From assembly GCA_003501665.1 (NCBI GenBank), contig DNOQ01000450.1, positions 10,340-74,339 on the forward strand: DNA of 64,000 bases, written 5' to 3'. Every line of letters starts with the position of its first letter. The first letter of the stretch is position 1. This stretch comes from Bacteroidales bacterium. GTDB taxonomy: Bacteria; Bacteroidota; Bacteroidia; Bacteroidales; VadinHA17. Of this stretch, positions 2,376-47,417 are shown one piece after another. Below the pieces are notes generated by a model. It saw only the letters and a program-made list of their open reading frames with translations, made no database searches and had not been told where the DNA came from. A program made the translations under genes and the position numbers.

Positions 2376-2377
2376 CC

Positions 2378-3397: not shown

Positions 3398-3416
3398 AAA
3401 TATTAAATAGAAAATC

Positions 3417-4325: not shown

Positions 4326-4334
4326 GGAAGTGAA

Positions 4335-5567: not shown

Positions 5568-5682
5568 ATCCTAAATGGTTTTCATGAGAACAACATGCTG
5601 AACACTTAATTGAGCGAATGTTAATCTGTAAGAAATAATCAAATAATAATGCATTAATAATTATTTAAAGAGGAGGTATATT

Positions 5683-6228
5683 ATGCTTGATAAGAAACAA
5701 TTCGAGAAAGCCCGCACTGAAGCACTTGCATATTTCGATAAGGCCGGTATCGTCCTTACTGAGAAGGAAAAAAATTCTATCGAAATTGCAGATTTCGGAC
5801 TAAGTGACCTCTATAAAATCGGACTCGAGGTGCTTGTTTATGTTAATACAACAAAAGTCTGCGCAAAAGAACTTGTAATGTTCCCGGGACAGACATGTCC
5901 GGAACACAAACATCCGACAAAGAACGGTATTTCAGGAAAAGAGGAGACATTCAGGTGCAGATGGGGTAAAGTATACCTGTATGTTACCGGTGAAAAGAAC
6001 TGTGAACCTAAACTTGACGGTCTGGAAAATCATAAAGAATATCTCAAGGTATCACATGAAATAGTACTTAATTCGGGAGATCAATATACTCTGATGTCTG
6101 ACACTCTGCACTGGTTCAGGGCAGGCGATGAAGGGGCTGTTGTTTCGGAGTTCTCAACTACAAGTACTGATGACCAGGATATCTTTACAGATCCCAGAAT
6201 AAACAGGTTCACCAAAATAAGCGAATAA
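5683..6228 (+). CDS. Cupin-type D-lyxose/D-mannose ketol-isomerase family protein (short form)
   Basis: 181 aa. ...CAKELVMFPGQTCPEHKHPTKNGISGKEETFRCRWGKVYLYV... matches my memory of the short (Bacillus YdaE-type) D-lyxose isomerase cupin metal site. The assignment rests on motif recall only. Confidence 0.7.
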   Translation: MLDKKQFEKARTEALAYFDKAGIVLTEKEKNSIEIADFGLSDLYKIGLEVLVYVNTTKVCAKELVMFPGQTCPEHKHPTKNGISGKEETFRCRWGKVYLYVTGEKNCEPKLDGLENHKEYLKVSHEIVLNSGDQYTLMSDTLHWFRAGDEGAVVSEFSTTSTDDQDIFTDPRINRFTKISE

Positions 6229-6251
6229 TTAACAGATCCACTGAAAATCTT

Positions 6252-7190
6252 ATGTCTGATATCGTTTGTGTCGGAATACTGGTTGCCGATGTCCTCGGAA
6301 AACCGGTTGACCATTTACCAGAGAAAGGTAAATTAGGCCTGGTAGAGAAAATGTCACTTCAGATTGGCGGTTGTGCCGCAAATTTTGCTATTGACCTTGC
6401 CAAACTCGGACTGAAAACCACTATCATTGGAAAGATAGGTGACGATAATTTTGGCAGATTTTTACTCGAAACTCTAAACTCAGAGAAAGTTGATGTAACG
6501 GGGCTGAAACTTGATAAAAATGTTTCTACCTCTGCTTCAATGGTTATGATATCAGGAGACGGCGAAAGATCAATACTTCATTCTTTCGGTGCCAATGCCA
6601 AATTCAGTTTTGATGATGTAAACCTTGATTTAATAAAAGAATCAAAAATCTTACTGATTGCAGGAACATTCCTCATGCCTGATTTTGACGGTGAAGGCAC
6701 AGAGAAACTCCTTAAATATGCAAAAGAGAATGGAGTTATTTGCTGCATGGATACTGCATGGGATTCAAAGGGTCAATGGCTCAGGAAGATTGAATCATCA
6801 TTGCAATATCTCGACTGGTTTATGCCGAGTTATGATGAAGCATGTGAAATGAGTGGCAAAAAGATCCCTGAAGAGATTGCCCTTTTCTTCCGTTCAAAAG
6901 GTGTTAAAAATGTAATTATAAAACTGGGGCATGAGGGTTGTTTCGTTAAGCAAGACGATCAAAAAGAGTACCAGGTCCCTGCTTTTAACAAAGTTAAGAC
7001 AATTGATACTTCAGGTGCCGGTGATTCATTCTGTGCAGGTTTTATTGCCGGACTCTATTTGGGCTGGAATATACCTGAATGTGCCAGGTTTGCAAATGCT
7101 GTTGGTGCTCATTGCATAATGCAGATAGGGACAACCGCAGGCATTAAATCTATCGAAGAGACTCTCAGATTCATTAAAGAATATGAATAA
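6252..7190 (+). CDS. PfkB/ribokinase-family carbohydrate kinase, substrate unknown
   Basis: 312 aa. Motifs are ...IVCVGILVADVLGKPV..., ...GGCAANFAIDLAKLG... and the C-terminal PfkB signature ...DTSGAGDSFCAGFIAGL.... Confidence 0.85.
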   Translation: MSDIVCVGILVADVLGKPVDHLPEKGKLGLVEKMSLQIGGCAANFAIDLAKLGLKTTIIGKIGDDNFGRFLLETLNSEKVDVTGLKLDKNVSTSASMVMISGDGERSILHSFGANAKFSFDDVNLDLIKESKILLIAGTFLMPDFDGEGTEKLLKYAKENGVICCMDTAWDSKGQWLRKIESSLQYLDWFMPSYDEACEMSGKKIPEEIALFFRSKGVKNVIIKLGHEGCFVKQDDQKEYQVPAFNKVKTIDTSGAGDSFCAGFIAGLYLGWNIPECARFANAVGAHCIMQIGTTAGIKSIEETLRFIKEYE

Positions 7191-35784: not shown

Positions 35785-38376
35785 CTACTTGTTCATCAAG
35801 TCATTGCCTGTCATTTTTACTTCGACCTTTTCACCAGGTGGAACATTAATCACGTATGGGATACCAGGGATCAGATCGAAGCAGTTGTCGGTAATCTCAG
35901 ATTCTCCATTTATGTCAAGAGTGAGAGCCCAGACATAGACAGGAGAAGTAATGATAACCTTGCTGCCACTTTGTTTTATTGAAATATCAGGTCTCAGCAA
36001 GACAAGGTCCTTAAACCTGGCCAGGAACAACCTGTGTTGTGATATAACATTCTCATTATTCTTTAACACAGCAAATGCTCCATGACTTTTAATACCTGCC
36101 TGTATAAAGAGGTTCTTATCAAATGAGGCGATTATTTTTGAAGAATTCGGCGGTAATACAACATTCTCAGACTTATTAACAGGAAGCTTTCCGCTTGTTT
36201 CAAACAATCCATACAGAAGCCTGCCCTTCCAGGATTCCTGTTTTTCGTTTATCCCATAGATATTTATCTTATTGCCTTCCTCTGCCACCACAACACAGAT
36301 CTGTTCAAATGATCTTCTTACCGGATGGTAAGCCAGTTTCTTCCTGAGATAATAATCTACGATGGTCCATCCGTGGGTAACAGGCCACGAGTCATTATAC
36401 ATCCAGAATATGGCACTTGAGCTGCTGTACATACGTCTGTGAAAATTATTGATATACTCCATAAGTCCTTCCGACTGAAGCAATGCACTGGCAAAGACAT
36501 AATCGTCAAAACTCATTTTTGAATAGTTCTTCCCAAGCCAGTCTTCAATGAATTTATATGTAACTCCTTTTTTATCAGTCACAAAGTTCATCATGTTATC
36601 GTGCAAATCCCATGAGAAGGACCGTATATATTGCTCACCTGGAGGCAGGAACTGCCGTAATGTGGCAGGTGAACTGGCGCCGAGAACCCCTCCTTCATTC
36701 GGGAAACGGTCCACATAATCCCTGTAAGCCCAGATGCTGGTGCTGTCCTTTTGAAGGGAGACACCCCATGGATGCTGATCGCCAGTTATCGGGCTGTTAG
36801 GAAACTGATGATCTTCTGAATATGGAGAACTTGGCCAGTAGAAACGGTACGGATCCTCTTCTTTCATTATGACCGGCATCAAATGGTGGTAAATCAGATA
36901 ATCAGGGACTACTTTTCCGCTGTGCGTGTAACCCCATCCCCATGTCCCCCATTCCAGCTCATTGTTTCCACACCAGACAATCAGGGATGGATGATGTGCA
37001 AATTCACGGACAGCCCAGGTTATTTCTTTTTTGACATTATTATAAAACCCGACATCATCTCCCGGATATTCGGAACATGCAAAAAGGAAGTCGTGCCATA
37101 CTACCACTCCTTTTTCGTCACACAGGCTCAGAAGTTCATTGCCTGCAAAAAGGCCTCCACCCCAGATCCGGAGAATATTAAAATTTGCATCAAGAGCCAG
37201 ATCGACAAGTTTTTCAAGGCGTTTATTGTCAACGCTGCTGTAGATCATATCAGCAGGCACCCAGTTGCCACCTTTCATAAAAACAGGACGATTGTTAACC
37301 TTTATGGTAAAGTAATTACCTTCAACAGGATGCTGTGACCGGTCAATGTCAATTTTCCTGAATCCTATTTTTCTTGAACCAGAATCAATCACCTTGCCAT
37401 TCTTCTTAATATCGATTCTCAGAGTATACAGATACGGATCGCCCTGACCTGCCGGCCACCATAACTCAGGTCTGTCTATTCTCATTTTTAATTCATACGG
37501 TTTTATTCCTTCAGATAGAGTAATTTTCCGGGATACATGCTGGTTTCTTTCAACCAGGATTGCTTCTGCTGTTACATCACCTGATTTGTCTGTCCCTTCA
37601 ATGAATGCCCTGATTACCATATCAGCTGACGAAAGGTCATCATTCATTTTTATCCAGGGGACAATATTGTCAAGCCTGGCTTCATCTCTCCAGATAAGAG
37701 ATACGTCACCGGTGATCCCGATGTTTATTAACTGAGGATTCCAGTCCCAGGAGAACTGGTACTGCGGCTTGCGTAACCAGTGTCGTTTGTTGAGATAAAC
37801 ATTAAGGGAATTGTTGTAGTCCTTTACACTCCTGTCCGCCGCATCATAGAGTCCGCTTTCTATACCCATGGTCAGAATATTTTTGCCCTCCAGGAGCTTC
37901 CCTGTAACATCTATTAAACAGGGAATAAAGGCATTATCATGCCTTCCGACCGGTTTCCCGTTAAGGCAGATTACTGCCGAATAATCGAGCCTGTCAAATT
38001 TCAGCCATACAGACTTGTTATTTATTCCCTCCGGTACAGAGAACTCCCTGTAATACTGCCAGTACTGTTCAGCTATCCACCTTGCCGATAAATAATTCAT
38101 CCCATAATTAATATCACTGATCATACCTTTTTTCTGCAGTGACAATATAAGGTCCATGGGCACATCGATATCCATATAGCGGAGAGTGTCATTCAGGGGA
38201 TTAATCATGCTGAAACCATTAATACTGTTAGGGCCATGATTACCATCATTCCAGGTAACTTTCCATCTGCCCGACAGACTTAATTGATTGTCAGGCTGGC
38301 TGTAAGTCTGGCAGTGAATCAATAATTCCAACAAAACCAGAACCAAAAACAGTTTTCCCTTAATTACTTTAGCCAT
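35785..38376 (-). CDS. GH2 beta-mannosidase
   Basis: 863 aa with a signal peptide. It has the GH2 sugar-binding N-domain, ...FNILRIWGGGLFAGNE... and ...VVWHDFLFACSEYPGDD...HHPSLIVWCGNNELEWGTWGW.... The acid/base NE lies in the context typical of Man2A-type beta-mannosidases. Confidence 0.85.
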   Translation of the reverse strand: MAKVIKGKLFLVLVLLELLIHCQTYSQPDNQLSLSGRWKVTWNDGNHGPNSINGFSMINPLNDTLRYMDIDVPMDLILSLQKKGMISDINYGMNYLSARWIAEQYWQYYREFSVPEGINNKSVWLKFDRLDYSAVICLNGKPVGRHDNAFIPCLIDVTGKLLEGKNILTMGIESGLYDAADRSVKDYNNSLNVYLNKRHWLRKPQYQFSWDWNPQLINIGITGDVSLIWRDEARLDNIVPWIKMNDDLSSADMVIRAFIEGTDKSGDVTAEAILVERNQHVSRKITLSEGIKPYELKMRIDRPELWWPAGQGDPYLYTLRIDIKKNGKVIDSGSRKIGFRKIDIDRSQHPVEGNYFTIKVNNRPVFMKGGNWVPADMIYSSVDNKRLEKLVDLALDANFNILRIWGGGLFAGNELLSLCDEKGVVVWHDFLFACSEYPGDDVGFYNNVKKEITWAVREFAHHPSLIVWCGNNELEWGTWGWGYTHSGKVVPDYLIYHHLMPVIMKEEDPYRFYWPSSPYSEDHQFPNSPITGDQHPWGVSLQKDSTSIWAYRDYVDRFPNEGGVLGASSPATLRQFLPPGEQYIRSFSWDLHDNMMNFVTDKKGVTYKFIEDWLGKNYSKMSFDDYVFASALLQSEGLMEYINNFHRRMYSSSSAIFWMYNDSWPVTHGWTIVDYYLRKKLAYHPVRRSFEQICVVVAEEGNKINIYGINEKQESWKGRLLYGLFETSGKLPVNKSENVVLPPNSSKIIASFDKNLFIQAGIKSHGAFAVLKNNENVISQHRLFLARFKDLVLLRPDISIKQSGSKVIITSPVYVWALTLDINGESEITDNCFDLIPGIPYVINVPPGEKVEVKMTGNDLMNK

Positions 38377-38625: not shown

Positions 38626-39840
38626 TTACTTAAGATCATATAATTCTTTAAGTTTATTAATGACAGGAAGATCCAGTACCGGATCGAAACCCAGCAGTTC
38701 TGTGAATGTTGATTCAAAATCTTTCTCAACAGAACTTAAGAATGTTATATCAGGAGGAAAACTGTTCCCTGTCTCATCTTTTACATTAAAACGCAACCCA
38801 AACGACATTGCCTTTAGTATCCTGTCGTATGGCAACTGACACTGCATTGCAAGATGTATTGCTCCCATGAACCTGTCATCAGCGCCGAGTTTCCGGATAA
38901 GGTCCTGACCTACCCGGAATATAGTATCCTGGAGGTCTTTATTCCTGAAACGGTATATAAGATCATCGATATGATCTTCCAGGTCTGAAACTGTAAAATC
39001 ATCCGGATAGACTACCCTCAGGATATCTGCCGACTGGATCATGACATCCCTGGTAAAGTCTGAAACCTCTTTATGGTCAAGCACTTCATACATATAAACA
39101 GCATCAGGATACAGTAAATAACCGTAATAGGCTGCAGCAGCGTGTCCGAGATTATGGATAAAAGCTTTCCTGTCGACCCATGCTTTTATATTGCTTTTGG
39201 GGGCTAATCCTTTTACCTGTGGTATTGGATTCTTAAATCCTTTTCCATCGAGTATCAGTGTATTATAAGGTTCAGCAAATACAACAAGAGGATCTTTTTC
39301 CAGTTCTGCCAATGGCATTATGGGGACCATTTTCCCAATGCTGGTCTCGATAAGCCCCACATAGGTATCAACAGGGAATTCCGAAGGCAGCACCTTTTTC
39401 AGCTGTTCATCGACGAACTCAGCTGCCGATCTCATATTCTCGGCGAGTATAATATCAAGAGGTTTATCTGGATCATTAACAGATCTCTTTAAGAGAGCTT
39501 CCGCAATAACAGGTATCACTTTTTCAAGTGCATTTTTACCTACAGATATCGCCATAATTCCGGCAGTAGAAACAGCATCAACCACACTTTCCCTGTTAAA
39601 AGCAGAGATAGCCTGCACATTCCTGACAATTATCTCCTGTTCGGTTTCACCTTTTATGACAATCCTGTACCTGCCCTGCTGGTTAAGCATACCAATAACT
39701 GTCTGATCCACATCGATAAATACAACATTATACCCGCTGCACCCGAATAATTGTCCGACAAAGGAGCGGCCGATCTTGCCGGCCCCGAAAATGACTATTT
39801 TGTGTATTTCAACCTTCGATCTGTTCTTTATAGGCCTCAT
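38626..39840 (-). CDS. Mannitol-dehydrogenase-family oxidoreductase (mannitol-1-phosphate 5-dehydrogenase-like)
   Basis: I place the start at the ATG at 39840 (MRPIKNRSKVEIHKIVIFGAGKIGRSFVGQLF..., a Rossmann motif like the MtlD N-terminus), giving 404 aa. The longer track ORF (to 39951) would overlap the upstream kinase by 143 nt. The chosen start still overlaps it by 32 nt. Confidence 0.75.
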   Translation of the reverse strand: MRPIKNRSKVEIHKIVIFGAGKIGRSFVGQLFGCSGYNVVFIDVDQTVIGMLNQQGRYRIVIKGETEQEIIVRNVQAISAFNRESVVDAVSTAGIMAISVGKNALEKVIPVIAEALLKRSVNDPDKPLDIILAENMRSAAEFVDEQLKKVLPSEFPVDTYVGLIETSIGKMVPIMPLAELEKDPLVVFAEPYNTLILDGKGFKNPIPQVKGLAPKSNIKAWVDRKAFIHNLGHAAAAYYGYLLYPDAVYMYEVLDHKEVSDFTRDVMIQSADILRVVYPDDFTVSDLEDHIDDLIYRFRNKDLQDTIFRVGQDLIRKLGADDRFMGAIHLAMQCQLPYDRILKAMSFGLRFNVKDETGNSFPPDITFLSSVEKDFESTFTELLGFDPVLDLPVINKLKELYDLK

Positions 39841-40996
39841 AGTATGGTTGCATTTTAGCCCGTTTTTCACCGGTTTCCTCTTCAAAATATGTACCTCCCA
39901 TATAGAAACAGGTAAAACCACCTGAGACGACTCCCCAGCAGCAGGCCTCACGAAGATCAGGATGTCTGACTCCGCTAAGAAGCTGGGTCACAACAGATGC
40001 AATAATCCCCCCGACAAAATTATCTCCACAACCGGTAGTGTCTCCGCCTTGTGCATTCTTAAGCTCGCCGATTACTTTTCTTGATACAGGCATCTCGGTT
40101 AATCCGGATTCTGTAAAAAAGTGTCCATCAGAATAAGTCGATATATTTTTCGATCCGTTGGTTATTATCAAAGAAGAGACTCTCTTCTCCCGGAAAAATC
40201 TTATGGCATCCTGGGGATCGTGTTCTCCGCTCAGGCGGAAAGCCTCCTCCTGATCCGCAATGAGAAGATCGATATAGCTGTAACTTGCATCACTTTCACC
40301 CAACGGCCATTTCTGCAAGGGATTCGCCTTTTCATTCCTGAAATCAAAAACAGTGTTTACAATTGTTATGCATCCTTTTGATTTAGCTTTCTTCAGAAGA
40401 GTTGTCAAATGGTCGTGAATCTGTGGGACAAGAGCTGTGCCGCCGAATACAACAATATCGGAATCAAAAAAATCGTCGCCCAGTTCATCCGGTCTGTAAT
40501 CCCATGCAGCTCCTATAGAGTTAAGAAAAGCTCTTTCCCCGTGCCCATTATCATAAGAAGGATCGGAGAGAACAACAGTAGATGGAGTACGATTATTTAT
40601 AAGTTTGTAATCCCTGAGCACCACCGGCGTCTTCCGGAGTGCTGAAATGAGATACTGACCTATATCATCATTTCCGCCACGACCATAGAAACGAACCTCA
40701 CACTGTTCTTTATCAACTAATTGAGAGACATTAATGAGTGAAACTATTGAGGGACCCCCAATGTTTATCTTATCATGGGTTCTGCCACCAGTTATTTTGT
40801 CAAGCACTTTGGTTAATGTACTCCCGCAATAATTCTCAAACTCCTCCTGAAATACAAGTTGCCCCGGTGTCAAACCTCCATCTCCCCGTTTTTTTGACAG
40901 GTATGGACTTATTTCTGCACTTTTAAAATTAATGTCATTGTATAAGAGATCAACCAGACAACAGCCTGTTCCTGAAACTATGATCTTTCCCGGCAT
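39809..40996 (-). CDS. PfkB-family carbohydrate kinase, substrate unknown
   Basis: 395 aa. Motifs are ...IIVSGTGCCLVDLLYN..., ...GGPSIVSLINVSQL... and the C-terminal signature ...GGDTTGCGDNFVGGIIAS.... Confidence 0.8.
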   Translation of the reverse strand: MPGKIIVSGTGCCLVDLLYNDINFKSAEISPYLSKKRGDGGLTPGQLVFQEEFENYCGSTLTKVLDKITGGRTHDKINIGGPSIVSLINVSQLVDKEQCEVRFYGRGGNDDIGQYLISALRKTPVVLRDYKLINNRTPSTVVLSDPSYDNGHGERAFLNSIGAAWDYRPDELGDDFFDSDIVVFGGTALVPQIHDHLTTLLKKAKSKGCITIVNTVFDFRNEKANPLQKWPLGESDASYSYIDLLIADQEEAFRLSGEHDPQDAIRFFREKRVSSLIITNGSKNISTYSDGHFFTESGLTEMPVSRKVIGELKNAQGGDTTGCGDNFVGGIIASVVTQLLSGVRHPDLREACCWGVVSGGFTCFYMGGTYFEEETGEKRAKMQPYYEAYKEQIEG

Positions 40997-41032
40997 AATA
41001 TTATTCTAAGTGATGATTATTAATTTCAATAA

Positions 41033-41707
41033 TTAAAGATACTTTTCATAGTCATTTACAAGAAGGTGAACCGGTTTCACATCCTCAACAATATCAGGGA
41101 ACCTTCCTATTTTCTCATAGAACCTGTTATCATTGGCATCGTCATTTACCAGGCTGACCTCTCCTATTAATACTCTGCCTTTCCCTTTCTCACCATAAAA
41201 CCTGTGATAAACTCTCGATTTCAGACATATGCTTTGCCCCGGTTTAAGAATCATAGGTTCTCCTGCTTTAACAGTGGTCAACACCCCGTCAATACTTACA
41301 GTTACCGGCTCAGGTGATAATTTATCATCATCAGTTGCATTGTAGAGCTCCATGACAAGATTGCCTCCGCCCCTGTTGATGATATCCTCTGTTTTGTTCC
41401 AGTGGAAATGCATCGGTGTCTCCTGTTCCTCATCAGAAACCATTATCTTCTCACAATACATTTTATCTTTTTTGTCCCAGTTGCCGTTCCGGATAGTAAA
41501 CAGGGATAATCCTGTTTTATTAAAATCACCGCTGCCAAAATCGGTTATATCCCAGCCCAGTTTATTATCCACTATCTCTCCACAGGTTTCATATTTTCCG
41601 CTCCATTCTTCAGGAGCCCAGTCAGCCCATTCAGGTAACATAAACTGATGTTTTACAAAAAACTCCTTGATATCTGTAATAATTGAATTAACCTCACTTC
41701 TTTTCAT
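41033..41707 (-). CDS. D-lyxose/D-mannose ketol-isomerase family protein (long, E. coli Z5688-type cupin)
   Basis: 224 aa. ...YCEKIMVSDEEQETPMHFHWNKTEDIINRGGGNLVMELY... and ...VYHRFYGEKGKG.VLIGEVS..NDD..DN.F match my memory of the Lyx_isomer family core. Confidence 0.8.
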   Translation of the reverse strand: MKRSEVNSIITDIKEFFVKHQFMLPEWADWAPEEWSGKYETCGEIVDNKLGWDITDFGSGDFNKTGLSLFTIRNGNWDKKDKMYCEKIMVSDEEQETPMHFHWNKTEDIINRGGGNLVMELYNATDDDKLSPEPVTVSIDGVLTTVKAGEPMILKPGQSICLKSRVYHRFYGEKGKGRVLIGEVSLVNDDANDNRFYEKIGRFPDIVEDVKPVHLLVNDYEKYL

Positions 41708-41849
41708 AATTTATCTGTTTTATAAGTTATTAACGACTGGTCTTTTGTAATATTTCAAATATAATTGCTTAGTCCTTAAAAAATCAAGTTTAAGAAAAAT
41801 TTATAGCAACTGATATTATTGAACCTGCAGTAAATATCCGGATAATTTA

Positions 41850-44800
41850 TTAATAAACTCCTTTTTTAAAACTATTATCAATTCCCCAACTGACATTGGG
41901 TTCCGGTCCCATTTCTAGTATTAACGATCCTCCTTTTAATAATTCCGAAGCAGGGAAATAAAAAGAGTTAAGCTCTTTACCGTTTAACACGGCTTTCTGC
42001 ACATAGATGTTTTTACGTGAGCTTTTCCTGGCTTCAATGACGAATTTTTCACCACGTCCGAACTGTTTTCCAAGATCGATCTCTATTTTTTCATAAAGCG
42101 GGCTGGCTATTTCATATACCGGATCGATCCTGCAACCTCCATCTGTCTGGAATAATCCAATAGAGGCCATAAGCAACCAGGCGCTCATCTGACCCTGATC
42201 CTCATCACCCAGGTAAGCATTTGATATGCCTGCTCCATAATAACGATCGATGATTGACCTGGTCCATTTCTGTGTAAGCCAGGGTTTTTGTACCCAATTG
42301 AAAAGAAAGGAAAAATGCATCGACTGCTGATTACCCTGTACTACCGGGTAATCCCAATACTGGTCATTGGGAGCATTATATCTCCATTTCTCACTCTGGT
42401 TAAATCCCCATTCCAGCCGTTCCAGGAAACGTTCTTTTCCTATGAGATCAGCTAAAGCGGGAACGTCCTGGGGTACAAAAAAAGTCATTTGCCAGGCATT
42501 AGCTTCAACATAGTGTCTGTTAGCTCCTGACCTGAAAGGATCGAAATCTGATACCCAGGAACCATCACTCAGACGCATATGACAATATCCGTTTTCCGGA
42601 TTTATAGCATTACGCCACCAGTAGCCCCGTTCGTTAAACAATTGATATTCTCTTGTTTTTCCCATGGCTTTTGCCATCTGACCTACTGTCCAGTCATCAA
42701 AGGAGTATTCCATGCTGTTGGAAAAGCGACCCATATCGGATGGAACATATTTATATTTCAGATACGGTACCAGGTTCCTGTTTCCTGCAAAACCATTAAA
42801 TACTTTCTGGGCAGGAGTCGTTTGCATCTTTATGGCAGCCTTTAATGCCTTCTCAGGATCAAAATTCCGGATACCCATCTGATATGCCCCCACGATCAGC
42901 GGGATCTCATGCTCGGCAACCATCACAGGTATGTAATTCATTCCTCCGGGGCCTTTCGCAAGCCAGCCGTTTGCATCGAACATGGCAAGTTGTGAATTTA
43001 CCCATCTGCCACTCCACTCAGGAGTTACGAGATTCCAGAATTGGTTCAGGTTCCAGAATGTATTCCAGAAAGCATCGCATCCCAGAGCAACATTATCCGG
43101 ATTTTCAATCTTCCGGATTTTCTTGTCAGTGGATACCCATTCTCCATTTACATCTGAGAAGATGTTCCGGCTGCAGACAGCACGGTAAAAATTTGTATAG
43201 AAACGGATTTTTTCAAGCCTGTTGTCAGTTGTAATCAAAACACGATTGAACAAATCATTCCATACCTTCACATGGTTTTCCCTGACGGCATCAAAACTCC
43301 AGCCGAAAGGATCAGTGATCTCGGTTTCGAGGTTTAAAGCTGCATTAGCGACACTGACATAAGAAATTCCTGAACGTACCTGAACAACAGGATTTTGTCT
43401 TGCATTAAATTGTAAAAACACTCCTGCCTGTTTAGCTTCTTCCGCCACCAAAGAATCATCATGATTTACAGTGTCATTTAACCAGCTGCCCATACTTTCG
43501 AAAGGCTTGTCAAATTCCAGTACAAAATAAACAGTATAATCCTGGTGGGCATCAATACTCCAGACCCGCGGGGCAAGCTGATGACAAGAACCCTCGATAC
43601 GGTATTTGTTTATTTGCTTAATCCGGATTTCCTTTATCTCATATCTGTTCTCAGCTGGTACTTTTAAATCAATCAGAATCCGCGCGCTATCCCTGTTTTC
43701 CGGAAAGGTAAAACGCATGAATCCGCAACGTGTTGTTGAAGTAATTTCTGCCTTGATATTATAATCGGTTAGTTCAGCTTTATAATATCCTATGGGTGCC
43801 TCTTCTGTCCGTTTATTAATTGCAGAACGATAACCTTCTTCCGGTAAAAGTTCGTCACCTATTCTGGTTATTAATTTCCCGTTCGAAGCAAAAATACCCA
43901 GGCCGCCAAGTGTCCATTCATGAATATGACTGAATGTACCAATGCTTTCAAATGAGGGTTCGTAACCTGCCTGCCACCCGGAATTCTGATTATCGGGACT
44001 CAGCTTAACCATACTGAAAGGCATCCAGGGACCTGGAGCAATCATCCACCGGGAATGTGCAGTCCCGATGCGGGTATCGACATAATCGGCCGGAGTCTGG
44101 AGCTTTTGTTTTGAACGTGTTATTGTGCCCTTCTGCAGCAATTTACCATCAGCAATTATCCGGTACCTGCTTTTAACCTGGCTGTCTACGGATGGCATGG
44201 GTACTTCATACTGATAATGACCTGATTCCATTGTTTCCTTAAAAATAACTTTGCCGTCAAGTTCCACGCTGATTACCGGTATTCCCTTCAAATGCTCAGC
44301 ACTTACAAGAAGAGGCTGCACTTTTTCCCCTTCCCTTATTATCTCATATGGAGCCGGCACTACCTCCTTAATAAAAACCTTTTCCGGAGATACAAGGGTT
44401 ACACCGGCCGGGCCTTCAAGATGCACCTCATCGAACATAATCCATGAACCTTCCAGGACAGCAAGGGTAATACAATTACCCCCGGATTTAATAATGCCGG
44501 GATTTATTGGTATTTCAATCATCCGGGGTGTAGCAGAACTTAAATCCCCTGTAATAGAAGCTGTATCTGTAACCGGCTCATTAAGCCTTGGATGTGGTTG
44601 TTTATCAAGCTGGTATTCGTTGGCAACCAATTGTAATTTCCGATCCGTATCGTTGATGCTTACCTTCAATAATGGTGAAAATTTTTTTGCAAAATCCAGG
44701 AGGTTTATTACAAGTTTCCATTCTCCTTTTGAAATCGGTTCAGGTATTTTTTTTACCCCGAAAAATATATTTATCTGATGTGTCCTCCAGCCTGAAGTTG

Positions 44801-45062
44801 ACCATGTACCTCCCCATGTATCAACCGGTCCGGGAATAACATAAGGAAACGATTTAACGGCTTCTGAAAATCCTGCCAGATAATATTTATCCTCAAAACC
44901 AAAGTCGCTGGCAAGGAACTGTTTAAAACTGTCCGGACCCAGTGCCAGGTCAGCCGATGAGTGATCAGCAATTCCTATACTCCAGATTATATGTTTGTCC
45001 TGGCTGCAGGATACAAGCGAAAGCATCATTAATAAGCCCGGAATAATTATCTTTTTTCTCAT
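41850..45062 (-). CDS. GH92-family alpha-mannosidase with a ~300-aa unassigned N-terminal extension (lipoprotein)
   Basis: 1070 aa with the lipoprotein box ...MLSLVSCSQD. The GH92 part begins near aa 324 (...ADYVDTRIGTAHSRWMIAPGPWMPFSMVKLSPDN...). It contains ...QGNQQSMHFSFLFNWVQKPWLTQKW...AYLGDEDQGQMSAWLLMASIGLF...IASPLYEKIEIDL.... Residues ~20-323 have no motif I recognise. Confidence 0.85.
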   Translation of the reverse strand: MRKKIIIPGLLMMLSLVSCSQDKHIIWSIGIADHSSADLALGPDSFKQFLASDFGFEDKYYLAGFSEAVKSFPYVIPGPVDTWGGTWSTSGWRTHQINIFFGVKKIPEPISKGEWKLVINLLDFAKKFSPLLKVSINDTDRKLQLVANEYQLDKQPHPRLNEPVTDTASITGDLSSATPRMIEIPINPGIIKSGGNCITLAVLEGSWIMFDEVHLEGPAGVTLVSPEKVFIKEVVPAPYEIIREGEKVQPLLVSAEHLKGIPVISVELDGKVIFKETMESGHYQYEVPMPSVDSQVKSRYRIIADGKLLQKGTITRSKQKLQTPADYVDTRIGTAHSRWMIAPGPWMPFSMVKLSPDNQNSGWQAGYEPSFESIGTFSHIHEWTLGGLGIFASNGKLITRIGDELLPEEGYRSAINKRTEEAPIGYYKAELTDYNIKAEITSTTRCGFMRFTFPENRDSARILIDLKVPAENRYEIKEIRIKQINKYRIEGSCHQLAPRVWSIDAHQDYTVYFVLEFDKPFESMGSWLNDTVNHDDSLVAEEAKQAGVFLQFNARQNPVVQVRSGISYVSVANAALNLETEITDPFGWSFDAVRENHVKVWNDLFNRVLITTDNRLEKIRFYTNFYRAVCSRNIFSDVNGEWVSTDKKIRKIENPDNVALGCDAFWNTFWNLNQFWNLVTPEWSGRWVNSQLAMFDANGWLAKGPGGMNYIPVMVAEHEIPLIVGAYQMGIRNFDPEKALKAAIKMQTTPAQKVFNGFAGNRNLVPYLKYKYVPSDMGRFSNSMEYSFDDWTVGQMAKAMGKTREYQLFNERGYWWRNAINPENGYCHMRLSDGSWVSDFDPFRSGANRHYVEANAWQMTFFVPQDVPALADLIGKERFLERLEWGFNQSEKWRYNAPNDQYWDYPVVQGNQQSMHFSFLFNWVQKPWLTQKWTRSIIDRYYGAGISNAYLGDEDQGQMSAWLLMASIGLFQTDGGCRIDPVYEIASPLYEKIEIDLGKQFGRGEKFVIEARKSSRKNIYVQKAVLNGKELNSFYFPASELLKGGSLILEMGPEPNVSWGIDNSFKKGVY

Positions 45063-45125: not shown

Positions 45126-47417
45126 TTAGTCAGCATAAGAAACCATAATTGCACTCAGGGGCGTTAACTTCAGTTTAAGCTCCGTTCCTGAAACAGATGA
45201 TCCTTCATTTTCTGATGCACTCCGGAAAACTATTACATCCCTGATGTTGTTTATATTTAGTGTAATTTCCTGTTCCCATGGCAGATAGTTCACAAAAAAT
45301 TGTGATTTACGGCCATTGCCGGACTGCCAGTTCGAGGTGAAAACTGAAGGAAAGTCAATACTACGTTTTCCCGGTCGGGTGATCATGGGTATATTTGCAG
45401 CTCCTTCGAACGGAAGAGGTTTTTGCATTCTTCCATATACCAGGTAATCTTTACCAGATCCCAATCTCCAGCTGTTAAGAGATTTCACAAGTTTAATAAT
45501 GTATTCCTGGTTGGGTATATCCGTCTCCCAGGTTGTTCCCCAATCCCAGATCATATCACCATTACCTCTTAATATAACCGTGAGCATATCCCCGGCACAA
45601 AATGAATAAGCCAGACGCTGAAGGAAATTATAAGGGCTCTCATTAACATCGATGGCCACTGACAGAGCATTCTGGTTCCCCATGAAATTGTTCACATATT
45701 CATGATTTACAAAGGCATAAGCGGGGACAGGTCTCCCGGCAAAAAGATTAATAGTGGCACGGGCATCATTGAAAAGCAAGTATTGTAGGTTGGCTTCAGA
45801 AGCTGCCGCTTCACATCCGATTATGGGTTTGTAACCTGCTTTTTCCAGGATCGGCAAAAAGCCTTTAAAAATGCTGTGCATAGCATCGTTTTGCCAGAGC
45901 CCCGGACCATAAGCATGACCATGACCGGTTCCGTAACACGGATAACAGCTTCCTCCCAGGTTCTGGTCAAAATACTGGACATAGTCAGTCTTACTGGCAA
46001 CTATCTTCAAAATCTGGTCTGACACCACCTCTCTGACAAAATCATTTGCAGGACACATGTCATAACCAATCCTCTGGGCATTGGGACCTGTACACACACC
46101 ATTGGTGGCCAGTGTTCCATCCGGAGCAACTTTCATCACCTTTTCAAGGCCCTTCTCTTCGTATTCCTTGTACATATTGTATGTTGTATCAGTATTACTT
46201 CGCAGAGTATAACCGATTCCGCTTGCATATAGCCCGGCAAGATTACCCTTATCATGTAAGCCCTTCACAAACTGAAGGTAGTTTTTTTCACCCCCGAAAG
46301 GTGGCCATACATAAGGCGGAGCCCAGGGAGCTGATCCTTCCCAGTGCATCAGTAATACCATAACCTTACTGTCAAATGCTTTGTTGTATTTGTCGATTAT
46401 CTTCAATGCATTTGTATAGGGATACAGTTCATTGGGCGTCATATCACCCATATCTTTATGGCCTCTCACAGGGTAGGTAATTACTACCGGTGACCGGAAA
46501 TACCAGTCAGGCAGCATTTTATTATCCCTGATCCTGGGTGGTACCGGCATACCTGATGATTCTCGCCAATCGCGGTAAATAGCAGAGGCATCATGCCAGT
46601 CGCCGTTAAAAACCTCCAGAACCATATCATAAGGCATCGTGTATAATCCCTTACCTGCTCCGCCAGGAAATAACCGGAAGTCCAGTTTTATTCCCTTTTC
46701 ACTGACACGATGGAATTCTATCCCTTTCGGATTGCACTTCTCATCGTGTGAAGCCAGATACAGGCCACCATTCTCATTGTAATATGCCATGTACTGCATC
46801 TGGGTTGAGGAAGGATAAAAGCCACCCCATCCCATTTTCGGATACTCAACCGGCTTGAACTTTAACCAGGGGCTCTCTTCACGGATTCTGATATCTTCAA
46901 TAAGGCAGCCCTCCTGGGCAGGCCAGAAAATGCGGCCTGTTCCGCCAGTGCCAATTAAATCATCAGGCACAACAACATTAGGAAAATCTATATGATCGAT
47001 AGTATATCCTGTATTGTTATCGATGCTGATATTCCACTTCATTCCCGGTGAGTTCTCAGACATTTTTACCGTGACAACAACTTTAAGATCAGTATTCCCG
47101 ATGCTGGTATATGTTAAAGTTAATAGTCCATAATTATTATTTTCAATTCTGAATTTTCCTGCCTGGTGTGCATCGAACTCGTGAATCTCTCCTTCCCTGA
47201 GAGGGTCACGAAAACGGATTGTGAAAAGCGGGCCTTCACTGTCAGCAGTATAAATAAGGTTTTTTCCAGCCTTTTCAATGGATTTTATGGAACCTGTATT
47301 ACCGTTTAGCTTCAGCTCATAAAACCTGTTCTTAAAAATTATATCGCTGTCTGAACATGAAGACAGAACCATTAAAGCAACAAAAATTAATAAGCAGTCC
47401 CAGAAATTTCTTCTCAT
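45126..47417 (-). CDS. Lipoprotein of unknown function, glycoside-hydrolase candidate (possible TIM-barrel)
   Basis: 763 aa with the lipoprotein box ...LMVLSSCSDS. The central region (...VMVLLMHWEGSAPWAPPYVWPPFGG..., ...DYVQYFDQNLGGSCYPCYGTGHGHAYGPG..., ...PIIGCEAAASE...) has beta-strand-then-acidic-residue patterns reminiscent of clan GH-A-like barrels. No family is assigned. Confidence 0.6.
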   Translation of the reverse strand: MRRNFWDCLLIFVALMVLSSCSDSDIIFKNRFYELKLNGNTGSIKSIEKAGKNLIYTADSEGPLFTIRFRDPLREGEIHEFDAHQAGKFRIENNNYGLLTLTYTSIGNTDLKVVVTVKMSENSPGMKWNISIDNNTGYTIDHIDFPNVVVPDDLIGTGGTGRIFWPAQEGCLIEDIRIREESPWLKFKPVEYPKMGWGGFYPSSTQMQYMAYYNENGGLYLASHDEKCNPKGIEFHRVSEKGIKLDFRLFPGGAGKGLYTMPYDMVLEVFNGDWHDASAIYRDWRESSGMPVPPRIRDNKMLPDWYFRSPVVITYPVRGHKDMGDMTPNELYPYTNALKIIDKYNKAFDSKVMVLLMHWEGSAPWAPPYVWPPFGGEKNYLQFVKGLHDKGNLAGLYASGIGYTLRSNTDTTYNMYKEYEEKGLEKVMKVAPDGTLATNGVCTGPNAQRIGYDMCPANDFVREVVSDQILKIVASKTDYVQYFDQNLGGSCYPCYGTGHGHAYGPGLWQNDAMHSIFKGFLPILEKAGYKPIIGCEAAASEANLQYLLFNDARATINLFAGRPVPAYAFVNHEYVNNFMGNQNALSVAIDVNESPYNFLQRLAYSFCAGDMLTVILRGNGDMIWDWGTTWETDIPNQEYIIKLVKSLNSWRLGSGKDYLVYGRMQKPLPFEGAANIPMITRPGKRSIDFPSVFTSNWQSGNGRKSQFFVNYLPWEQEITLNINNIRDVIVFRSASENEGSSVSGTELKLKLTPLSAIMVSYAD

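What the first reader, a model, noticed from the sequence alone, without database searches (positions are those of the whole stretch)
38626..41707. Second isomerase-kinase-dehydrogenase module embedded in the mannosidase gene run, suggesting a mannose-to-fructose route that bypasses mannose-6-P isomerase
On the minus strand, three genes follow each other with a 36-nt gap and then a 32-nt overlap. They are a long-form D-lyxose/D-mannose isomerase (HFHWNKTEDIINRGGG core), a PfkB kinase and an MtlD-like mannitol-dehydrogenase-family enzyme. They sit in the middle of 13 co-directional genes (35785-63115) that otherwise encode mannosidases. Together with the short-form isomerase plus kinase at 5683-7190, the window holds two non-orthologous copies of the same logic. 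D-lyxose isomerases are known to interconvert D-mannose and D-fructose. The usual bacterial route is hexokinase/PTS followed by ManA. The role of the polyol-phosphate dehydrogenase is open: a redox valve to mannitol-1-P, or a different substrate.
Basis: partly seen in the sequence, partly recalled or inferred. Interest (0 to 1): 0.6.

Follow-up and report, generated by a model that had tools for sequence, protein, structure and literature searches.

The report
Conserved mannose isomerase–kinase–dehydrogenase gene cassette
Three adjacent genes inside a mannosidase cluster of an uncultured Bacteroidales bacterium form a widely conserved cassette that most likely turns released mannose into fructose phosphate and links it to mannitol-1-phosphate. 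The isomerase-plus-kinase route is a known kind, but the tightly coupled, sometimes fused, kinase–dehydrogenase pair is uncharacterised.

Summary
On the minus strand lie a 224-aa D-lyxose/D-mannose-isomerase-family cupin (41033-41707), a 395-aa divergent PfkB kinase (39809-40996) and a 404-aa MtlD-like dehydrogenase (38626-39840). They are separated by a 36-nt gap and a 32-nt overlap, and flanked by GH92 and GH2 genes.

The order isomerase-kinase-dehydrogenase recurs in 36 of 52 fully flanked loci from other Bacteroidota genomes. Mannosidase genes lie nearby only where the isomerase is present (24/42 versus 0/10).

The dehydrogenase keeps the catalytic residues and the two key phosphate-binding arginines of mannitol-1-phosphate dehydrogenases, so it probably acts on a phosphorylated sugar. 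However, it belongs to a large separate clade with an altered active-site strand.

Kinase and dehydrogenase overlap in most genomes and occur as natural fusion proteins in both orders. Where the cupin is missing, a different candidate isomerase or deaminase sits just upstream of the kinase.

Best reading: mannose → fructose → fructose-6-P ⇌ mannitol-1-P. The direction and purpose of the last step are unresolved. Mannose isomerase plus fructokinase is not new, and bypass of ManA could not be tested. The kinase–dehydrogenase module itself appears undescribed.

The parts
41033..41707 (-). Long-form D-lyxose/D-mannose isomerase-family cupin (ISO), 224 aa
   Evidence: PF07385 1.3e-97 over its full length. 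46% identity to E. coli O157 ECs_5070/Z5688, PDB 3kmh, 4e-60. Metal ligands H100, H102, E107, H168 and K105 are conserved in 63-65 of 65 sequences (the window plus 64 homologues). NCBIfam equivalog NF051472 scores 285.7, below its cut-off of 350.
39809..40996 (-). Divergent PfkB-family sugar kinase (KIN), 395 aa
   Evidence: PF00294 5.7e-18. No NCBIfam equivalog comes near its cut-off. The best PDB sequence hits have E of about 1e-3. AF2 model: pLDDT 77, pTM 0.82. Foldseek's top hit is E. coli YdjH at 18% identity. D16, G80-G81 and the DTTGCGDNF motif (D325) are conserved in 76-77 of 77 sequences. 2991 relatives in the protein database.
38626..39840 (-). MtlD-like (mannitol-1-phosphate-dehydrogenase-like) NAD-dependent dehydrogenase (DH), 404 aa
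   Evidence: PF01232 and PF08125. PDB 3h2z 2e-50 and 5jnm 1e-26. N135, K225, N230, H233, R309, R316, K317 and R323 are conserved; Q312 replaces one arginine (PMC6623548). The strand IGKMVP replaces the canonical VDRIVP. MtlD equivalogs score about 200 bits against cut-offs of about 360.
39809..39840 (-). 32-nt overlap of the kinase 3' end and the dehydrogenase 5' end (probable translational coupling)
   Evidence: The same -32 spacing occurs in 22 other loci, and 47 of 58 kinase-dehydrogenase pairs overlap.
41756..41763 (-). TATATTTG, a match to the Bacteroidetes -7 promoter consensus TAnnTTTG, 49 nt upstream of the isomerase ATG
   Evidence: It is the only such match in any intergenic gap of the 13-gene run. 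Background is 0.41 per kb on this strand, so this is weak evidence for a separate promoter.
41850..45062 (-). GH92 alpha-mannosidase with an N-terminal CBM-like domain, immediately upstream
   Evidence: The same neighbour is seen in L048, L081 and L082.
35785..38376 (-). GH2 beta-mannosidase-like gene immediately downstream
   Evidence: Glyco_hydro_2_N2, Glyco_hydro_2, Mannosidase_ig. GH2 homologues flank the cassette in 11-12 other loci.
5683..7190 (+). Second module: short-form cupin isomerase (181 aa) plus conventional PfkB kinase (312 aa)
   Evidence: The short form has H-x-H-x8-K-x-E spacing, as in the Thermofilum enzyme (PMC8378251). The kinase is closest to IolC/ribokinase models but below their cut-offs. 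The module lies in one operon with E1alpha/E1beta, a class II aldolase and E2 (1398-5567).

Best explanation
The three genes form a catabolic cassette for the monosaccharide released by the surrounding exo-mannosidases.

- **Step 1.** The Mn-dependent cupin isomerase converts D-mannose to D-fructose. The family assignment is shown; the physiological substrate is inferred from gene neighbourhood.
- **Step 2.** The atypical PfkB kinase phosphorylates fructose, most likely to fructose-6-phosphate. This is inferred. In other genomes the gene immediately upstream of this kinase is either the same cupin, a xylose-isomerase-like TIM-barrel protein, or a NagB-like protein. Each could plausibly yield fructose, but none has been characterised.
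- **Step 3.** The NAD-dependent MtlD-like dehydrogenase is translationally coupled to the kinase. It acts on the kinase's phosphorylated product, interconverting fructose-6-P and mannitol-1-P. A phosphorylated substrate is inferred from conserved arginines; the identity and direction are not shown.

My commitment: the main flux is mannose → fructose → fructose-6-P, and the dehydrogenase ties that pool to mannitol-1-P. Whether it drains NADH or brings in mannitol phosphorylated by the same kinase is open. I rate these roughly equal.
For: **Isomerase.** PF07385 matches over the full length. The protein is 46% identical to the crystallised E. coli O157 enzyme, and all metal ligands are conserved. 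The family interconverts mannose and fructose (PMC8378251).

**Synteny.** At least 542 species-level genomes encode a relative of the kinase, and the 80 best loci were analysed.
- Among the 52 of these with full flanks, 42 have the isomerase, 44 the dehydrogenase and 36 both, always in the order ISO-KIN-DH.
- Mannosidase genes co-occur only with the isomerase: 24/42 against 0/10, Fisher p = 0.001.
- Several loci carry an MFS hexose-type transporter and a DUF4432 protein just upstream of the isomerase.

**Dehydrogenase.**
- The catalytic Asn/Lys/Asn/His set, the NAD-binding Asp (D43) and the two arginines shown by mutagenesis to be essential for binding the phosphate of M1P/F6P are conserved in 62 sequences (PMC6623548).
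- Kinase-dehydrogenase coupling: the modal overlap is -32 nt.
- Natural fusion proteins exist: kinase-dehydrogenase (P0126, P0173) and dehydrogenase-PfkB (P0198, P0203).
- The P0126 fusion is preceded by a 224-aa Lyx_isomer gene.

**Non-orthologous upstream enzymes.**
- A XylA2-like gene lies next to the P0173 fusion.
- TIM-barrel cluster c44 precedes the kinase in L004 and L014.
- NagB-like or Glucosamine_iso genes precede the kinase or the fusion in the amino-sugar clusters.
Against: - The kinase has no informative relative. All equivalog models fail, and the structural neighbours (YdjH, KDG kinases, fructokinase, adenosine kinase) share 14-19% identity. Neither fructose nor O6 is demonstrated.
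- If the product were the central metabolite fructose-6-P, there would be little reason for tight coupling or fusion with a dehydrogenase.
- The dehydrogenase is not an orthodox MtlD. It falls below every equivalog cut-off. One of the three phosphate arginines is Gln. The active-site strand VDRI is IGKM, invariant in this subfamily and typical of a large separate clade.
- No physiological rationale for making mannitol-1-P from mannose in an anaerobic Bacteroidales is evident.
- Eight of 52 fully flanked loci lack the dehydrogenase nearby.
- The window's cassette has no adjacent transporter or regulator.
- The co-occurrence statistics ignore phylogenetic non-independence.
Confidence: 0.5

Rival explanations
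1. The kinase–dehydrogenase pair is primarily a PTS-independent hexitol route: mannitol + ATP → mannitol-1-P, then mannitol-1-P + NAD+ → fructose-6-P. Here a soluble kinase replaces the mannitol PTS that Bacteroidota lack. The isomerase merely shares the kinase (fructose as a second substrate) or the operon. In a mannan locus this would suit fungal biomass, which supplies both mannan and mannitol.
For: - MtlD-type enzymes need mannitol-1-P, and the phosphate-binding arginines are kept.
- Fusion and overlap of kinase and dehydrogenase are most natural when the intermediate is a non-central metabolite.
- Stand-alone kinase-dehydrogenase pairs exist without any isomerase (L091).
- An FGGY-kinase–dehydrogenase–aldolase cluster with an ABC sugar transporter exists (L093).
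Against: - This does not explain why an aldose-ketose isomerase or a NagB-like gene sits immediately upstream of the kinase in most loci.
- My two literature searches on this point returned no bacterial mannitol kinase.
- The dehydrogenase–PHP phosphoesterase fusion P0140 fits the opposite direction better.
- Known PTS-free mannitol routes use mannitol 2-dehydrogenase plus a fructose kinase (Haloarcula, PMC11519228).
Confidence: 0.2
2. The kinase makes a non-central phosphorylated ketose, for example fructose-1-phosphate as ketohexokinases do, or a phosphorylated derivative of another sugar. The modified MtlD-like enzyme then oxidises or reduces it to an intermediate of an undescribed pathway. 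In some genomes that pathway may continue through a class II aldolase or an acetoin/pyruvate-dehydrogenase-like E1/E2/E3 complex.
For: - The kinase and dehydrogenase are both outliers of their families.
- Fusions imply an intermediate worth channelling.
- L075 has ISO-KIN-DH followed co-directionally by E2, E3, a fused E1 and a Zn-ADH. The same set (39-66% identity) flanks a dehydrogenase-PHP fusion in an unrelated MAG (L089).
- The window and L001 carry E1alpha/E1beta–aldolase–E2–cupin–PfkB operons.
- A prokaryotic ketohexokinase forming fructose-1-P is documented (PMC11519228).
Against: - E2 homologues occur in only 2 of the 80 loci, so the link is occasional.
- The conserved distal phosphate pocket, with the same spacing of residues as in MtlD, argues for a 6-phospho-2-ketose or 1-phospho-hexitol geometry.
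- No chemistry can be specified from sequence.
Confidence: 0.15
3. The cassette serves a rare sugar other than mannose: D-lyxose → D-xylulose → xylulose-5-P ⇌ pentitol phosphate, or L-ribose or D-talose. Its position among mannosidase genes would then be incidental.
For: Characterised family members generally prefer D-lyxose, and some short forms are almost lyxose-specific (PMC8378251). The xylose-isomerase-like proteins upstream of the kinase in other genomes would also give xylulose.
Against: - Repeated co-location with GH92/GH38/GH2 genes, restricted to isomerase-containing loci.
- Hexose-type MFS transporters nearby.
- The dehydrogenase keeps residue spacing that fits a six-carbon phosphate.
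- Free D-lyxose is scarce in nature (general knowledge).
Confidence: 0.08
4. It is an acid-sugar module of the uronate/KDG type: a KduI/IolB-like cupin, a KdgK/IolC-like kinase and a UxuB-like reductase.
For: The kinase's weak NCBIfam hits include IolC and KDG kinase. KDG kinases are among the structural neighbours. Mannitol_dh is also the family of UxuB and UxaB.
Against: - The cupin is an unambiguous PF07385 member (1e-97), not KduI or IolB.
- The dehydrogenase matches MtlD models at about 200 bits but tagaturonate reductase at 20 bits.
- It has the short MtlD architecture with the phosphate arginines.
- No dehydratase or KDPG aldolase is adjacent.
Confidence: 0.03

Closest known systems
E. 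coli O157:H7 D-lyxose/D-mannose isomerase Z5688 (ECs_5070; PDB 3kmh/3mpb) and its gene cluster
   Same: The isomerase is 46% identical, with the same length class and the same metal ligands. It too is encoded next to a PfkB sugar kinase and sugar-uptake genes.
   Different: The E. coli cluster is ABC transporter–isomerase–class II aldolase–PfkB, with no dehydrogenase. Its kinase is unrelated to the cassette kinase beyond the fold (26% over 93 residues). It resembles the window's second module instead: 25% identity to the 6252-7190 kinase and 31% between the aldolases.
Mannose isomerase (EC 5.3.1.7) + fructose phosphorylation route of pseudomonads
   Same: The same logic for the first two steps: free mannose is isomerised to fructose and then phosphorylated, avoiding mannose-6-P isomerase (PMC6293094, citing Palleroni & Doudoroff 1956).
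   Different: Different organisms. The enzyme families of the pseudomonad route are not specified in the source I read. There is no coupled dehydrogenase and no link to glycoside hydrolase clusters.
Mannitol-1-phosphate 5-dehydrogenase MtlD (Shigella/E. coli 3h2z; S. aureus 5jnm) of the mtl operon
   Same: Same two-domain fold, the KxxxxNxxH catalytic motif, the NAD-binding Asp, substrate Arg/Lys residues, and the two essential phosphate-binding arginines (PMC6623548).
   Different: - About 35% identity, below all MtlD equivalog cut-offs.
- The third arginine is Gln.
- The VDRI strand is replaced by IGKM.
- It is partnered with a soluble kinase rather than a PTS transporter.
Mannitol cycle / bifunctional MtlD–phosphatase of Acinetobacter (PDB 7ocn)
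   Same: Consecutive steps fructose → fructose-6-P → mannitol-1-P (→ mannitol). A dehydrogenase fused to a phosphoesterase domain exists in this clade too (P0140). The Acinetobacter enzyme appears among the PDB hits.
   Different: In those systems the pathway makes mannitol as a solute or redox shuttle. Here the genes sit in catabolic glycan loci. The fused domain in P0140 is PHP rather than HAD, and its activity is unknown.
PTS-free polyol routes: mannitol/sorbitol dehydrogenase + ketohexokinase in Haloarcula hispanica
   Same: A dehydrogenase and a sugar kinase are encoded together for hexitol/fructose metabolism in an organism that does not use a PTS for the substrate (PMC11519228).
   Different: There the dehydrogenases act on the free polyol and the kinase makes fructose-1-P. 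Here the dehydrogenase carries the phosphate-binding site of the phospho-polyol enzymes.

Membership tests
D-lyxose/D-mannose isomerase (PF07385; EC 5.3.1.15 / 5.3.1.7) | Full-length match to the family profile above its gathering score | tested here: met
   325.8 bits against a cut-off of 20.8, covering residues 1-220 of 224.
D-lyxose/D-mannose isomerase (PF07385; EC 5.3.1.15 / 5.3.1.7) | Cupin metal site (His-x-His-x4-Glu plus a distal His) and the catalytic Lys | tested here: met
   H100, H102, E107, H168 and K105 align with H103, H105, E110, H171 and K108 of the E. coli enzyme. They are conserved in 63-65 of 65 sequences (motif definition in PMC8378251).
D-lyxose/D-mannose isomerase (PF07385; EC 5.3.1.15 / 5.3.1.7) | Score above the curated NCBIfam equivalog cut-off (NF051472, Gram-negative D-lyxose/D-mannose isomerase) | tested here: not met
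   285.7 bits against a cut-off of 350. It is a family member, not a curated equivalog.
D-lyxose/D-mannose isomerase (PF07385; EC 5.3.1.15 / 5.3.1.7) | Measured isomerisation of D-mannose to D-fructose | not testable with these tools
   Requires an enzyme assay.
PfkB / ribokinase-family carbohydrate kinase | Profile match above the gathering score, with the GG dipeptide and the DTxGxGD anion-hole/catalytic Asp motif | tested here: met
   65.7 bits against 25.8. G80-G81 and D319-T-T-G-C-G-D325 are conserved in 76-77 of 77 sequences. The fold is confirmed by the AF2 model plus Foldseek.
Fructokinase (PfkB type, NCBIfam NF006957) or any other curated kinase equivalog | Score above the equivalog cut-off | tested here: not met
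   Fructokinase 31.6 against 450. IolC domain 34.1 against 300. KDG kinase 27.1 against 400. Ribokinase 18.3 against 300.
Mannitol-1-phosphate 5-dehydrogenase (MtlD, EC 1.1.1.17) | Mannitol_dh N and C domains, the KxxxxNxxH catalytic motif and the oxyanion Asn | tested here: met
   PF01232 and PF08125. N135, K225, N230 and H233 are conserved in 57-62 of 62 sequences, with gaps accounting for the remainder.
Mannitol-1-phosphate 5-dehydrogenase (MtlD, EC 1.1.1.17) | Three-arginine phosphate pocket (S. aureus R283, R287, R294), conserved in M1PDHs and absent from mannitol 2-dehydrogenases (PMC6623548) | tested here: inconclusive
   R316 and R323, the two equivalents that are essential, are invariant. 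The R283 equivalent is Q312 here and varies within the Bacteroidales subfamily (Q/H/C/R). It is Arg in most of the wider clade.
Mannitol-1-phosphate 5-dehydrogenase (MtlD, EC 1.1.1.17) | Canonical active-site strand S-A-V-D-R-I-V-P (S. aureus D150-V153; I152 lines the substrate cavity and V153 contacts NAD) | tested here: not met
   The strand is T-S-I-G-K-M-V-P, invariant in 60 of 62 sequences with the other two gapped. Only 4 of about 150 nearest cluster representatives keep VDRI.
Mannitol-1-phosphate 5-dehydrogenase (MtlD, EC 1.1.1.17) | Score above any curated MtlD equivalog cut-off | tested here: not met
   The best is 208.7 bits against 368. Nine MtlD models all fall below their cut-offs.
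Bacteroidota polysaccharide utilisation locus (PUL) | An adjacent SusC-like TonB-dependent transporter and SusD-like pair | tested here: not met
   None of the ORFs of at least 150 aa in the 64-kb window has Plug, TonB_dep_Rec or SusD domains. A pair may lie outside the window. SusC-like genes occur near the cassette in some other loci.

The most novel reading that the evidence does not exclude
The atypical PfkB kinase and the 'IG(K/R)M' MtlD-like dehydrogenase constitute a widespread, undescribed two-enzyme module that is sometimes a single fused polypeptide. It processes fructose, or another ketose, through a phosphorylated intermediate that is not simply fed into glycolysis. Different lineages plug different candidate fructose-forming enzymes into it: a cupin mannose isomerase, a xylose-isomerase-like TIM barrel, or a NagB-like deaminase. 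In some genomes its product is handed to an acetoin/pyruvate-dehydrogenase-like E1/E2/E3 complex. That would amount to a new route of hexose-phosphate breakdown in anaerobic Bacteroidota and other phyla.
Probability: 0.12. Interest if true: 0.8.

Novelty: new variant of a known kind. Interest (0 to 1): 0.5.

Why it matters
Alpha-mannan and N-glycan degradation by Bacteroidota is well studied at the glycosidase level, but the fate of the released mannose is usually assumed to be hexokinase plus ManA. A conserved, locus-embedded isomerase–kinase cassette in hundreds of species suggests a dedicated alternative entry. It could improve metabolic reconstruction of anaerobic-digester, sediment and gut Bacteroidales.

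More generally, the analysis exposes a large MtlD-like clade: about 500 clusters at 50% identity with E below 1e-30. Many of its members sampled here are adjacent or fused to a sugar kinase, and in the literature I could search it has no assigned reaction. Automatic annotation as 'mannitol-1-phosphate 5-dehydrogenase' may therefore be wrong or incomplete. Identifying the reaction would fix the annotation of thousands of genes and might reveal how PTS-free bacteria handle hexitol phosphates.

Tried and rejected
1. **Naming the kinase's substrate by homology.** NCBIfam, PDB sequence search, and an AF2 model with Foldseek against PDB gave only fold-level neighbours (YdjH, KDG kinase, fructokinase, adenosine kinase at 14-19% identity). 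No assignment was possible.
3. **Treating the dehydrogenase as a free-mannitol 2-dehydrogenase feeding fructose to the kinase.** This is attractive because every partner would then make fructose. It is disfavoured by the conserved phosphate-binding arginines (PMC6623548).
4. **The structural role of the Asp lost in the VDRI→IGKM change.** I looked for it in open-access papers on mannitol 2-dehydrogenase.
5. **Literature searches.** Searches linking lyxose isomerase with Bacteroidetes or mannosidase loci, for a bacterial mannitol kinase, and for acetoin-dehydrogenase-like complexes in sugar catabolism returned nothing relevant.
6. **Presence or absence of manA in the source genome.** This could not be checked.
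7. **Sigma-70 promoter and terminator scan.** It gave counts no higher than shuffled sequence and is not suited to Bacteroidota.
8. **Looking in the window for partners common elsewhere.** The URO-D/MtaA-like gene, MFS transporters, DUF4432, GHL6 and the TIM barrel were sought; none is present.

Full report
**The observation**

The window has three consecutive minus-strand ORFs at the stated coordinates.
- A 224-aa protein (41033-41707) matches the D-lyxose isomerase family PF07385 over its full length (1.3e-97).
- A 395-aa protein (39809-40996) matches PfkB only modestly (5.7e-18).
- A third protein has both Mannitol_dh domains.

The third ORF is open from a GTG at 39951. The ATG at 39840 gives a 404-aa product that begins just before the Rossmann GAGKIGR motif. 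Independent gene calls on two other assemblies of the same DNA use that start.

The surrounding 64 kb is a dense mannosidase region:
- eight GH92 genes;
- three full GH38 genes, 71-76% identical to each other;
- two GH38N/DUF5054 paralogues, 70% identical to each other;
- two GH2 beta-mannosidase-like genes;
- an MGH1-like hydrolase;
- a DUF6259 protein;
- an esterase-like hydrolase.

The nearest database entry names the source as a Bacteroidales MAG. The only correction is that not all ten other genes of the 13-gene run are established mannosidases.

**Is the arrangement meaningful?**

A scan of one genome per species with two conserved kinase peptides found at least 542 genomes encoding a relative. 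The 80 best loci were kept. They come from Bacteroidales, Prolixibacteraceae, Rikenellaceae, Tannerella, Paludibacter, Fermentimonas, Marinilabiliaceae and one Caldithrix MAG.

tblastn with the window's proteins showed the isomerase directly upstream of the kinase in 66 loci. It showed the dehydrogenase directly downstream in most of 63 loci, always in the order ISO-KIN-DH.

Restricting to the 52 loci with at least 5 kb on both sides gave these counts:
- 42 have the isomerase, 44 the dehydrogenase and 36 both.
- Homologues of the window's GH92/GH38/GH2 genes lie within 10 kb in 24 of the 42 isomerase-containing loci.
- They lie within 10 kb in none of the 10 loci without the isomerase (Fisher p = 0.001).

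The test ignores shared ancestry, so the p-value is indicative only.

The kinase-dehydrogenase spacing is -32 nt in 22 loci, and 47 of 58 pairs overlap. The isomerase-kinase gap is typically 2-60 nt.

The only match to the Bacteroidetes -7 promoter consensus (TAnnTTTG) in any intergenic gap of the 13-gene run lies 49 nt upstream of the isomerase ATG. This is weak evidence that the trio can be transcribed on its own.

**The isomerase**

It is 46% identical to ECs_5070/Z5688 of E. coli O157:H7, whose structures are deposited as 3kmh and 3mpb. The His-x-His-x4-Glu plus His metal site and the catalytic Lys are conserved in essentially all 64 homologues.

The family catalyses D-lyxose↔D-xylulose and D-mannose↔D-fructose, although some short forms are nearly lyxose-specific (PMC8378251).

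It scores below the curated equivalog cut-off (285.7 against 350). It is therefore a family member whose preferred substrate is untested. The mannosidase association, hexose-type MFS transporters (GluP/FucP-like) and DUF4432 proteins upstream of it in several loci point to a free hexose, most simply mannose. From memory, DUF4432 is related to aldose epimerases.

**The dehydrogenase**

The nearest solved structures are the mannitol-1-phosphate 5-dehydrogenases of Shigella (3h2z, 2e-50) and S. aureus (5jnm, 1e-26).

The structure-function study of the S. aureus enzyme (PMC6623548) defines these residues:
- the catalytic set Asn119/Lys200/Asn205;
- substrate residues His208, Arg280 and Lys288;
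- NAD-binding Asp31;
- a phosphate pocket of Arg283, Arg287 and Arg294. This pocket is conserved in phosphate-specific enzymes but not in mannitol 2-dehydrogenases. R287 and R294 are essential and R283 is less important.

In the window protein these positions are N135, K225, N230, H233, R309, K317, D43 and Q312/R316/R323. All but Q312 are invariant in the 62 aligned sequences, which are the window protein and its homologues from the loci. I infer an NAD-dependent enzyme acting on a phosphorylated substrate with MtlD-like geometry.

It is not an orthodox MtlD, however.
- Nine MtlD equivalog models score 113-209 bits against cut-offs of 269-719.
- The strand S-A-V-D-R-I-V-P becomes T-S-I-G-K-M-V-P, invariant in this subfamily. 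In S. aureus, Ile152 of this strand lines the substrate cavity and Val153 contacts NAD.
- An exhaustive HMMER search found 497 clusters (50% identity) at E below 1e-30.
- Among the best 150, nearly all have (I/V)-G-(K/R)-M and only four keep V-D-R-I.

This is therefore a large, distinct clade, and I found no characterised member of it.

**The kinase**

It has the PfkB hallmarks: D16, the GG dipeptide and DTTGCGDNF with D325, all invariant. It is about 80 residues longer than usual, including a strongly conserved insertion between D16 and the GG motif.

No curated model comes near its cut-off, and PDB sequence hits are marginal. An AlphaFold model (pLDDT 77, pTM 0.82) retrieves E. coli YdjH, KDG kinases, fructokinases and adenosine kinases at 14-19% identity. 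The fold is confirmed, but no substrate can be read from it.

**Evidence that kinase and dehydrogenase work together**

Besides the conserved overlap, the representative search turned up natural fusions:
- P0126 (802 aa) and P0173 (810 aa) are kinase-dehydrogenase fusions of exactly these two subfamilies.
- P0198 and P0203 are dehydrogenase-PfkB fusions in the opposite order.
- P0140 is a dehydrogenase fused to a PHP phosphoesterase domain.

P0126 is preceded by a 224-aa Lyx_isomer gene. Another relative, 49% identical to the window kinase, forms a bare kinase-dehydrogenase pair. A more distant dehydrogenase is sandwiched between an FGGY kinase and a class II aldolase, next to an ABC sugar transporter. 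The dehydrogenase therefore very probably acts on a kinase product.

**What feeds the kinase**

In loci lacking the cupin, the gene just upstream of the kinase varies.
- It can be a xylose-isomerase-like TIM-barrel protein. Cluster c44 plays this role in L004 and L014, and a XylA2-like gene lies next to the P0173 fusion.
- Alternatively, in a recurrent amino-sugar cluster, it is a NagB-like protein. That cluster holds a PIG-L deacetylase, a GFO/IDH/MocA oxidoreductase, a DegT aminotransferase, a NagB-like protein, transporters and TIM barrels.
- The same set (ROK regulator, ABC transporter, TIM barrels, PIG-L, GFO, Glucosamine_iso) precedes the dehydrogenase-kinase fusion P0203 in a sortase-encoding, hence presumably Gram-positive, organism.

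A mannose isomerase, a glucose/xylose-isomerase-like enzyme and a glucosamine deaminase-like enzyme have one plausible product in common, which is fructose or fructose-6-P. This is the basis, by inference only, for calling the kinase a fructose kinase.

**Most likely mechanism**

Periplasmic exo-mannosidases release mannose. After uptake, the cupin isomerises it to fructose and the kinase phosphorylates fructose, probably at O6. The coupled NAD-dependent dehydrogenase then interconverts fructose-6-P and mannitol-1-P.

What is shown:
- the family memberships;
- the conserved active-site residues;
- the synteny and the fusions.

What is inferred:
- the physiological substrates;
- the phosphorylation position;
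- the dehydrogenase reaction and its direction.

The weak point is the rationale. Fructose-6-P is already a central metabolite, so tight coupling to a dehydrogenase is unexpected. Two sub-readings remain.
- A reductive branch towards mannitol-1-P, consistent with the PHP fusion and with the mannitol-cycle order of steps.
- Entry of mannitol phosphorylated by the same kinase, which would suit organisms without a mannitol PTS and a diet of fungal biomass.

A third possibility is that the phosphorylated intermediate is not fructose-6-P at all. Both enzymes are outliers of their families.

**Comparison with what is known**

Isomerising mannose to fructose before phosphorylation is an old observation in pseudomonads (PMC6293094). 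'Bypassing ManA' is therefore a known type of route. Whether this organism lacks or bypasses ManA cannot be said from the window.

The gene neighbourhood of the best-characterised homologue, E. coli O157 ECs_5070, is ABC transporter–isomerase–class II aldolase–PfkB. That arrangement matches the window's other module: short cupin 5683-6228, PfkB 6252-7190 and aldolase 3417-4325, with 25-31% identities. It does not match the trio.

The two modules in the window are thus related designs. One is isomerase–kinase–aldolase and the other is isomerase–kinase–dehydrogenase. They are not duplicates.

PTS-free polyol catabolism, as documented in Haloarcula, uses free-polyol dehydrogenases plus a ketohexokinase (PMC11519228). 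The present dehydrogenase has the phospho-polyol site instead.

I found no paper connecting lyxose isomerase with Bacteroidetes or with mannosidase loci.

**Verdict**

The finding is real and biologically coherent. Its headline interpretation is plausible but only partly testable here, and the route is not new in principle.

The genuinely open and more interesting element is the kinase–dehydrogenase module. It is conserved in hundreds of species, overlapping or fused, and built from two uncharacterised subfamilies. I rate it a new variant of a known kind, of moderate interest.

There is a minority chance that it marks an undescribed pathway. That chance includes the occasional but conserved link to acetoin/pyruvate-dehydrogenase-like E1/E2/E3 genes.

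Noticed in passing
window 1398-7190 (+); also L001 15382-21152: One co-directional operon encodes PDH-like E1alpha, E1beta, a divergent class II ketose-bisphosphate-type aldolase (inserted between E1beta and E2), a lipoyl E2, a short-form lyxose-isomerase-like cupin and an IolC/ribokinase-like PfkB kinase. All are below curated equivalog cut-offs except an E1beta subfamily model. The operon is conserved at 72-97% identity in L001, 3 kb from that genome's trio. A 2-oxoacid/acetoin-dehydrogenase-type complex inside a sugar operon of an anaerobic Bacteroidales is unexplained.
   Followed up: partly
L075 9317-20347; L089 4620-17368: In L075 the trio is followed co-directionally by E2, E3, a 269-aa ORF, a fused E1alpha-beta (819 aa) and a 421-aa Zn-ADH. 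The same E2/E3/E1/ADH set (39-66% identity) flanks a dehydrogenase–PHP fusion in an unrelated MAG (GCA_016214035.1). That MAG also carries a class II aldolase–SDR fusion (sorbitol-6-P-dehydrogenase-like), a lipoate ligase and a radical-SAM gene. This suggests an occasional functional link between this dehydrogenase clade and a lipoyl-dependent complex.
   Followed up: partly
L066 12355-13596 and 22 other loci (cluster c4); absent from the window: A 335-415-aa protein with a URO-D/MtaA-like (methyltransferase or decarboxylase TIM-barrel) C-terminal half lies directly after the dehydrogenase, or close to the trio, in 23 of 80 loci. It is often followed by a Sugar_tr MFS transporter and a DUF998 protein. 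Its role is unknown. No homologue is present in the window.
   Followed up: partly
L041, L050, L069, L070, L072, L077; L087/L088: A recurrent amino-sugar-type cluster surrounds kinase–dehydrogenase pairs that lack the cupin isomerase. It holds a PIG-L deacetylase, GFO/IDH/MocA oxidoreductases, a DegT aminotransferase, a NagB-like protein, ceramidase-N-like proteins, a GH109-like protein, xylose-isomerase-like TIM barrels and SSF/RhaT transporters. A reduced version recurs around a dehydrogenase-kinase fusion in a sortase-encoding organism. The substrate is unknown.
   Followed up: partly
window 15428-16348 (+): A 306-aa ORF with weak DDE transposase matches (PF01609, 1.6e-4) lies between a GH38 gene and a GH92 gene, at the point where gene orientation switches. 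It may be an IS remnant inside the mannosidase region.
   Followed up: no
window 12506-15184, 20480-23041, 23060-25744 (-); 50718-53387, 53506-56172 (-): Recent paralogue expansion. Three full-length GH38 genes are 71-76% identical to each other. Two tandem 888-889-aa genes with only weak GH38N plus DUF5054 matches are 70% identical to each other.
   Followed up: partly
window 30930-32081 (-): A 383-aa protein has a weak DUF4432 match (2e-5). Homologues (56-77% identity) recur next to GH38 genes and next to the trio in other loci (L029, L037, L048, L056, L062, L075). It is probably a conserved accessory of the mannoside system.
   Followed up: partly
window 7313-8575 and 8796-10991 (+); 47510-48391 and 45126-47417 (-): Secreted or lipoprotein-like proteins with no Pfam family (420 aa, 731 aa) or only weak or DUF matches (a 293-aa protein with a faint GH43-like hit; DUF6259) sit among the glycosidases. 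They are candidate unclassified glycan-active proteins.
   Followed up: no
whole window 1-64000: Despite about 20 glycoside-hydrolase-type genes with lipoprotein-like signal peptides, no SusC/SusD pair, hybrid two-component sensor or ECF sigma/anti-sigma pair was detected among ORFs of at least 150 aa in the 64 kb.
   Followed up: partly
window 11058-12431 (-): A 457-aa Amidohydro_2-family protein (lactonase/decarboxylase-type) lies next to the GH38 gene. Amidohydro_2 genes also follow the trio in Rikenellaceae-type loci (cluster c36, e.g. L027 12546-13637).
   Followed up: no
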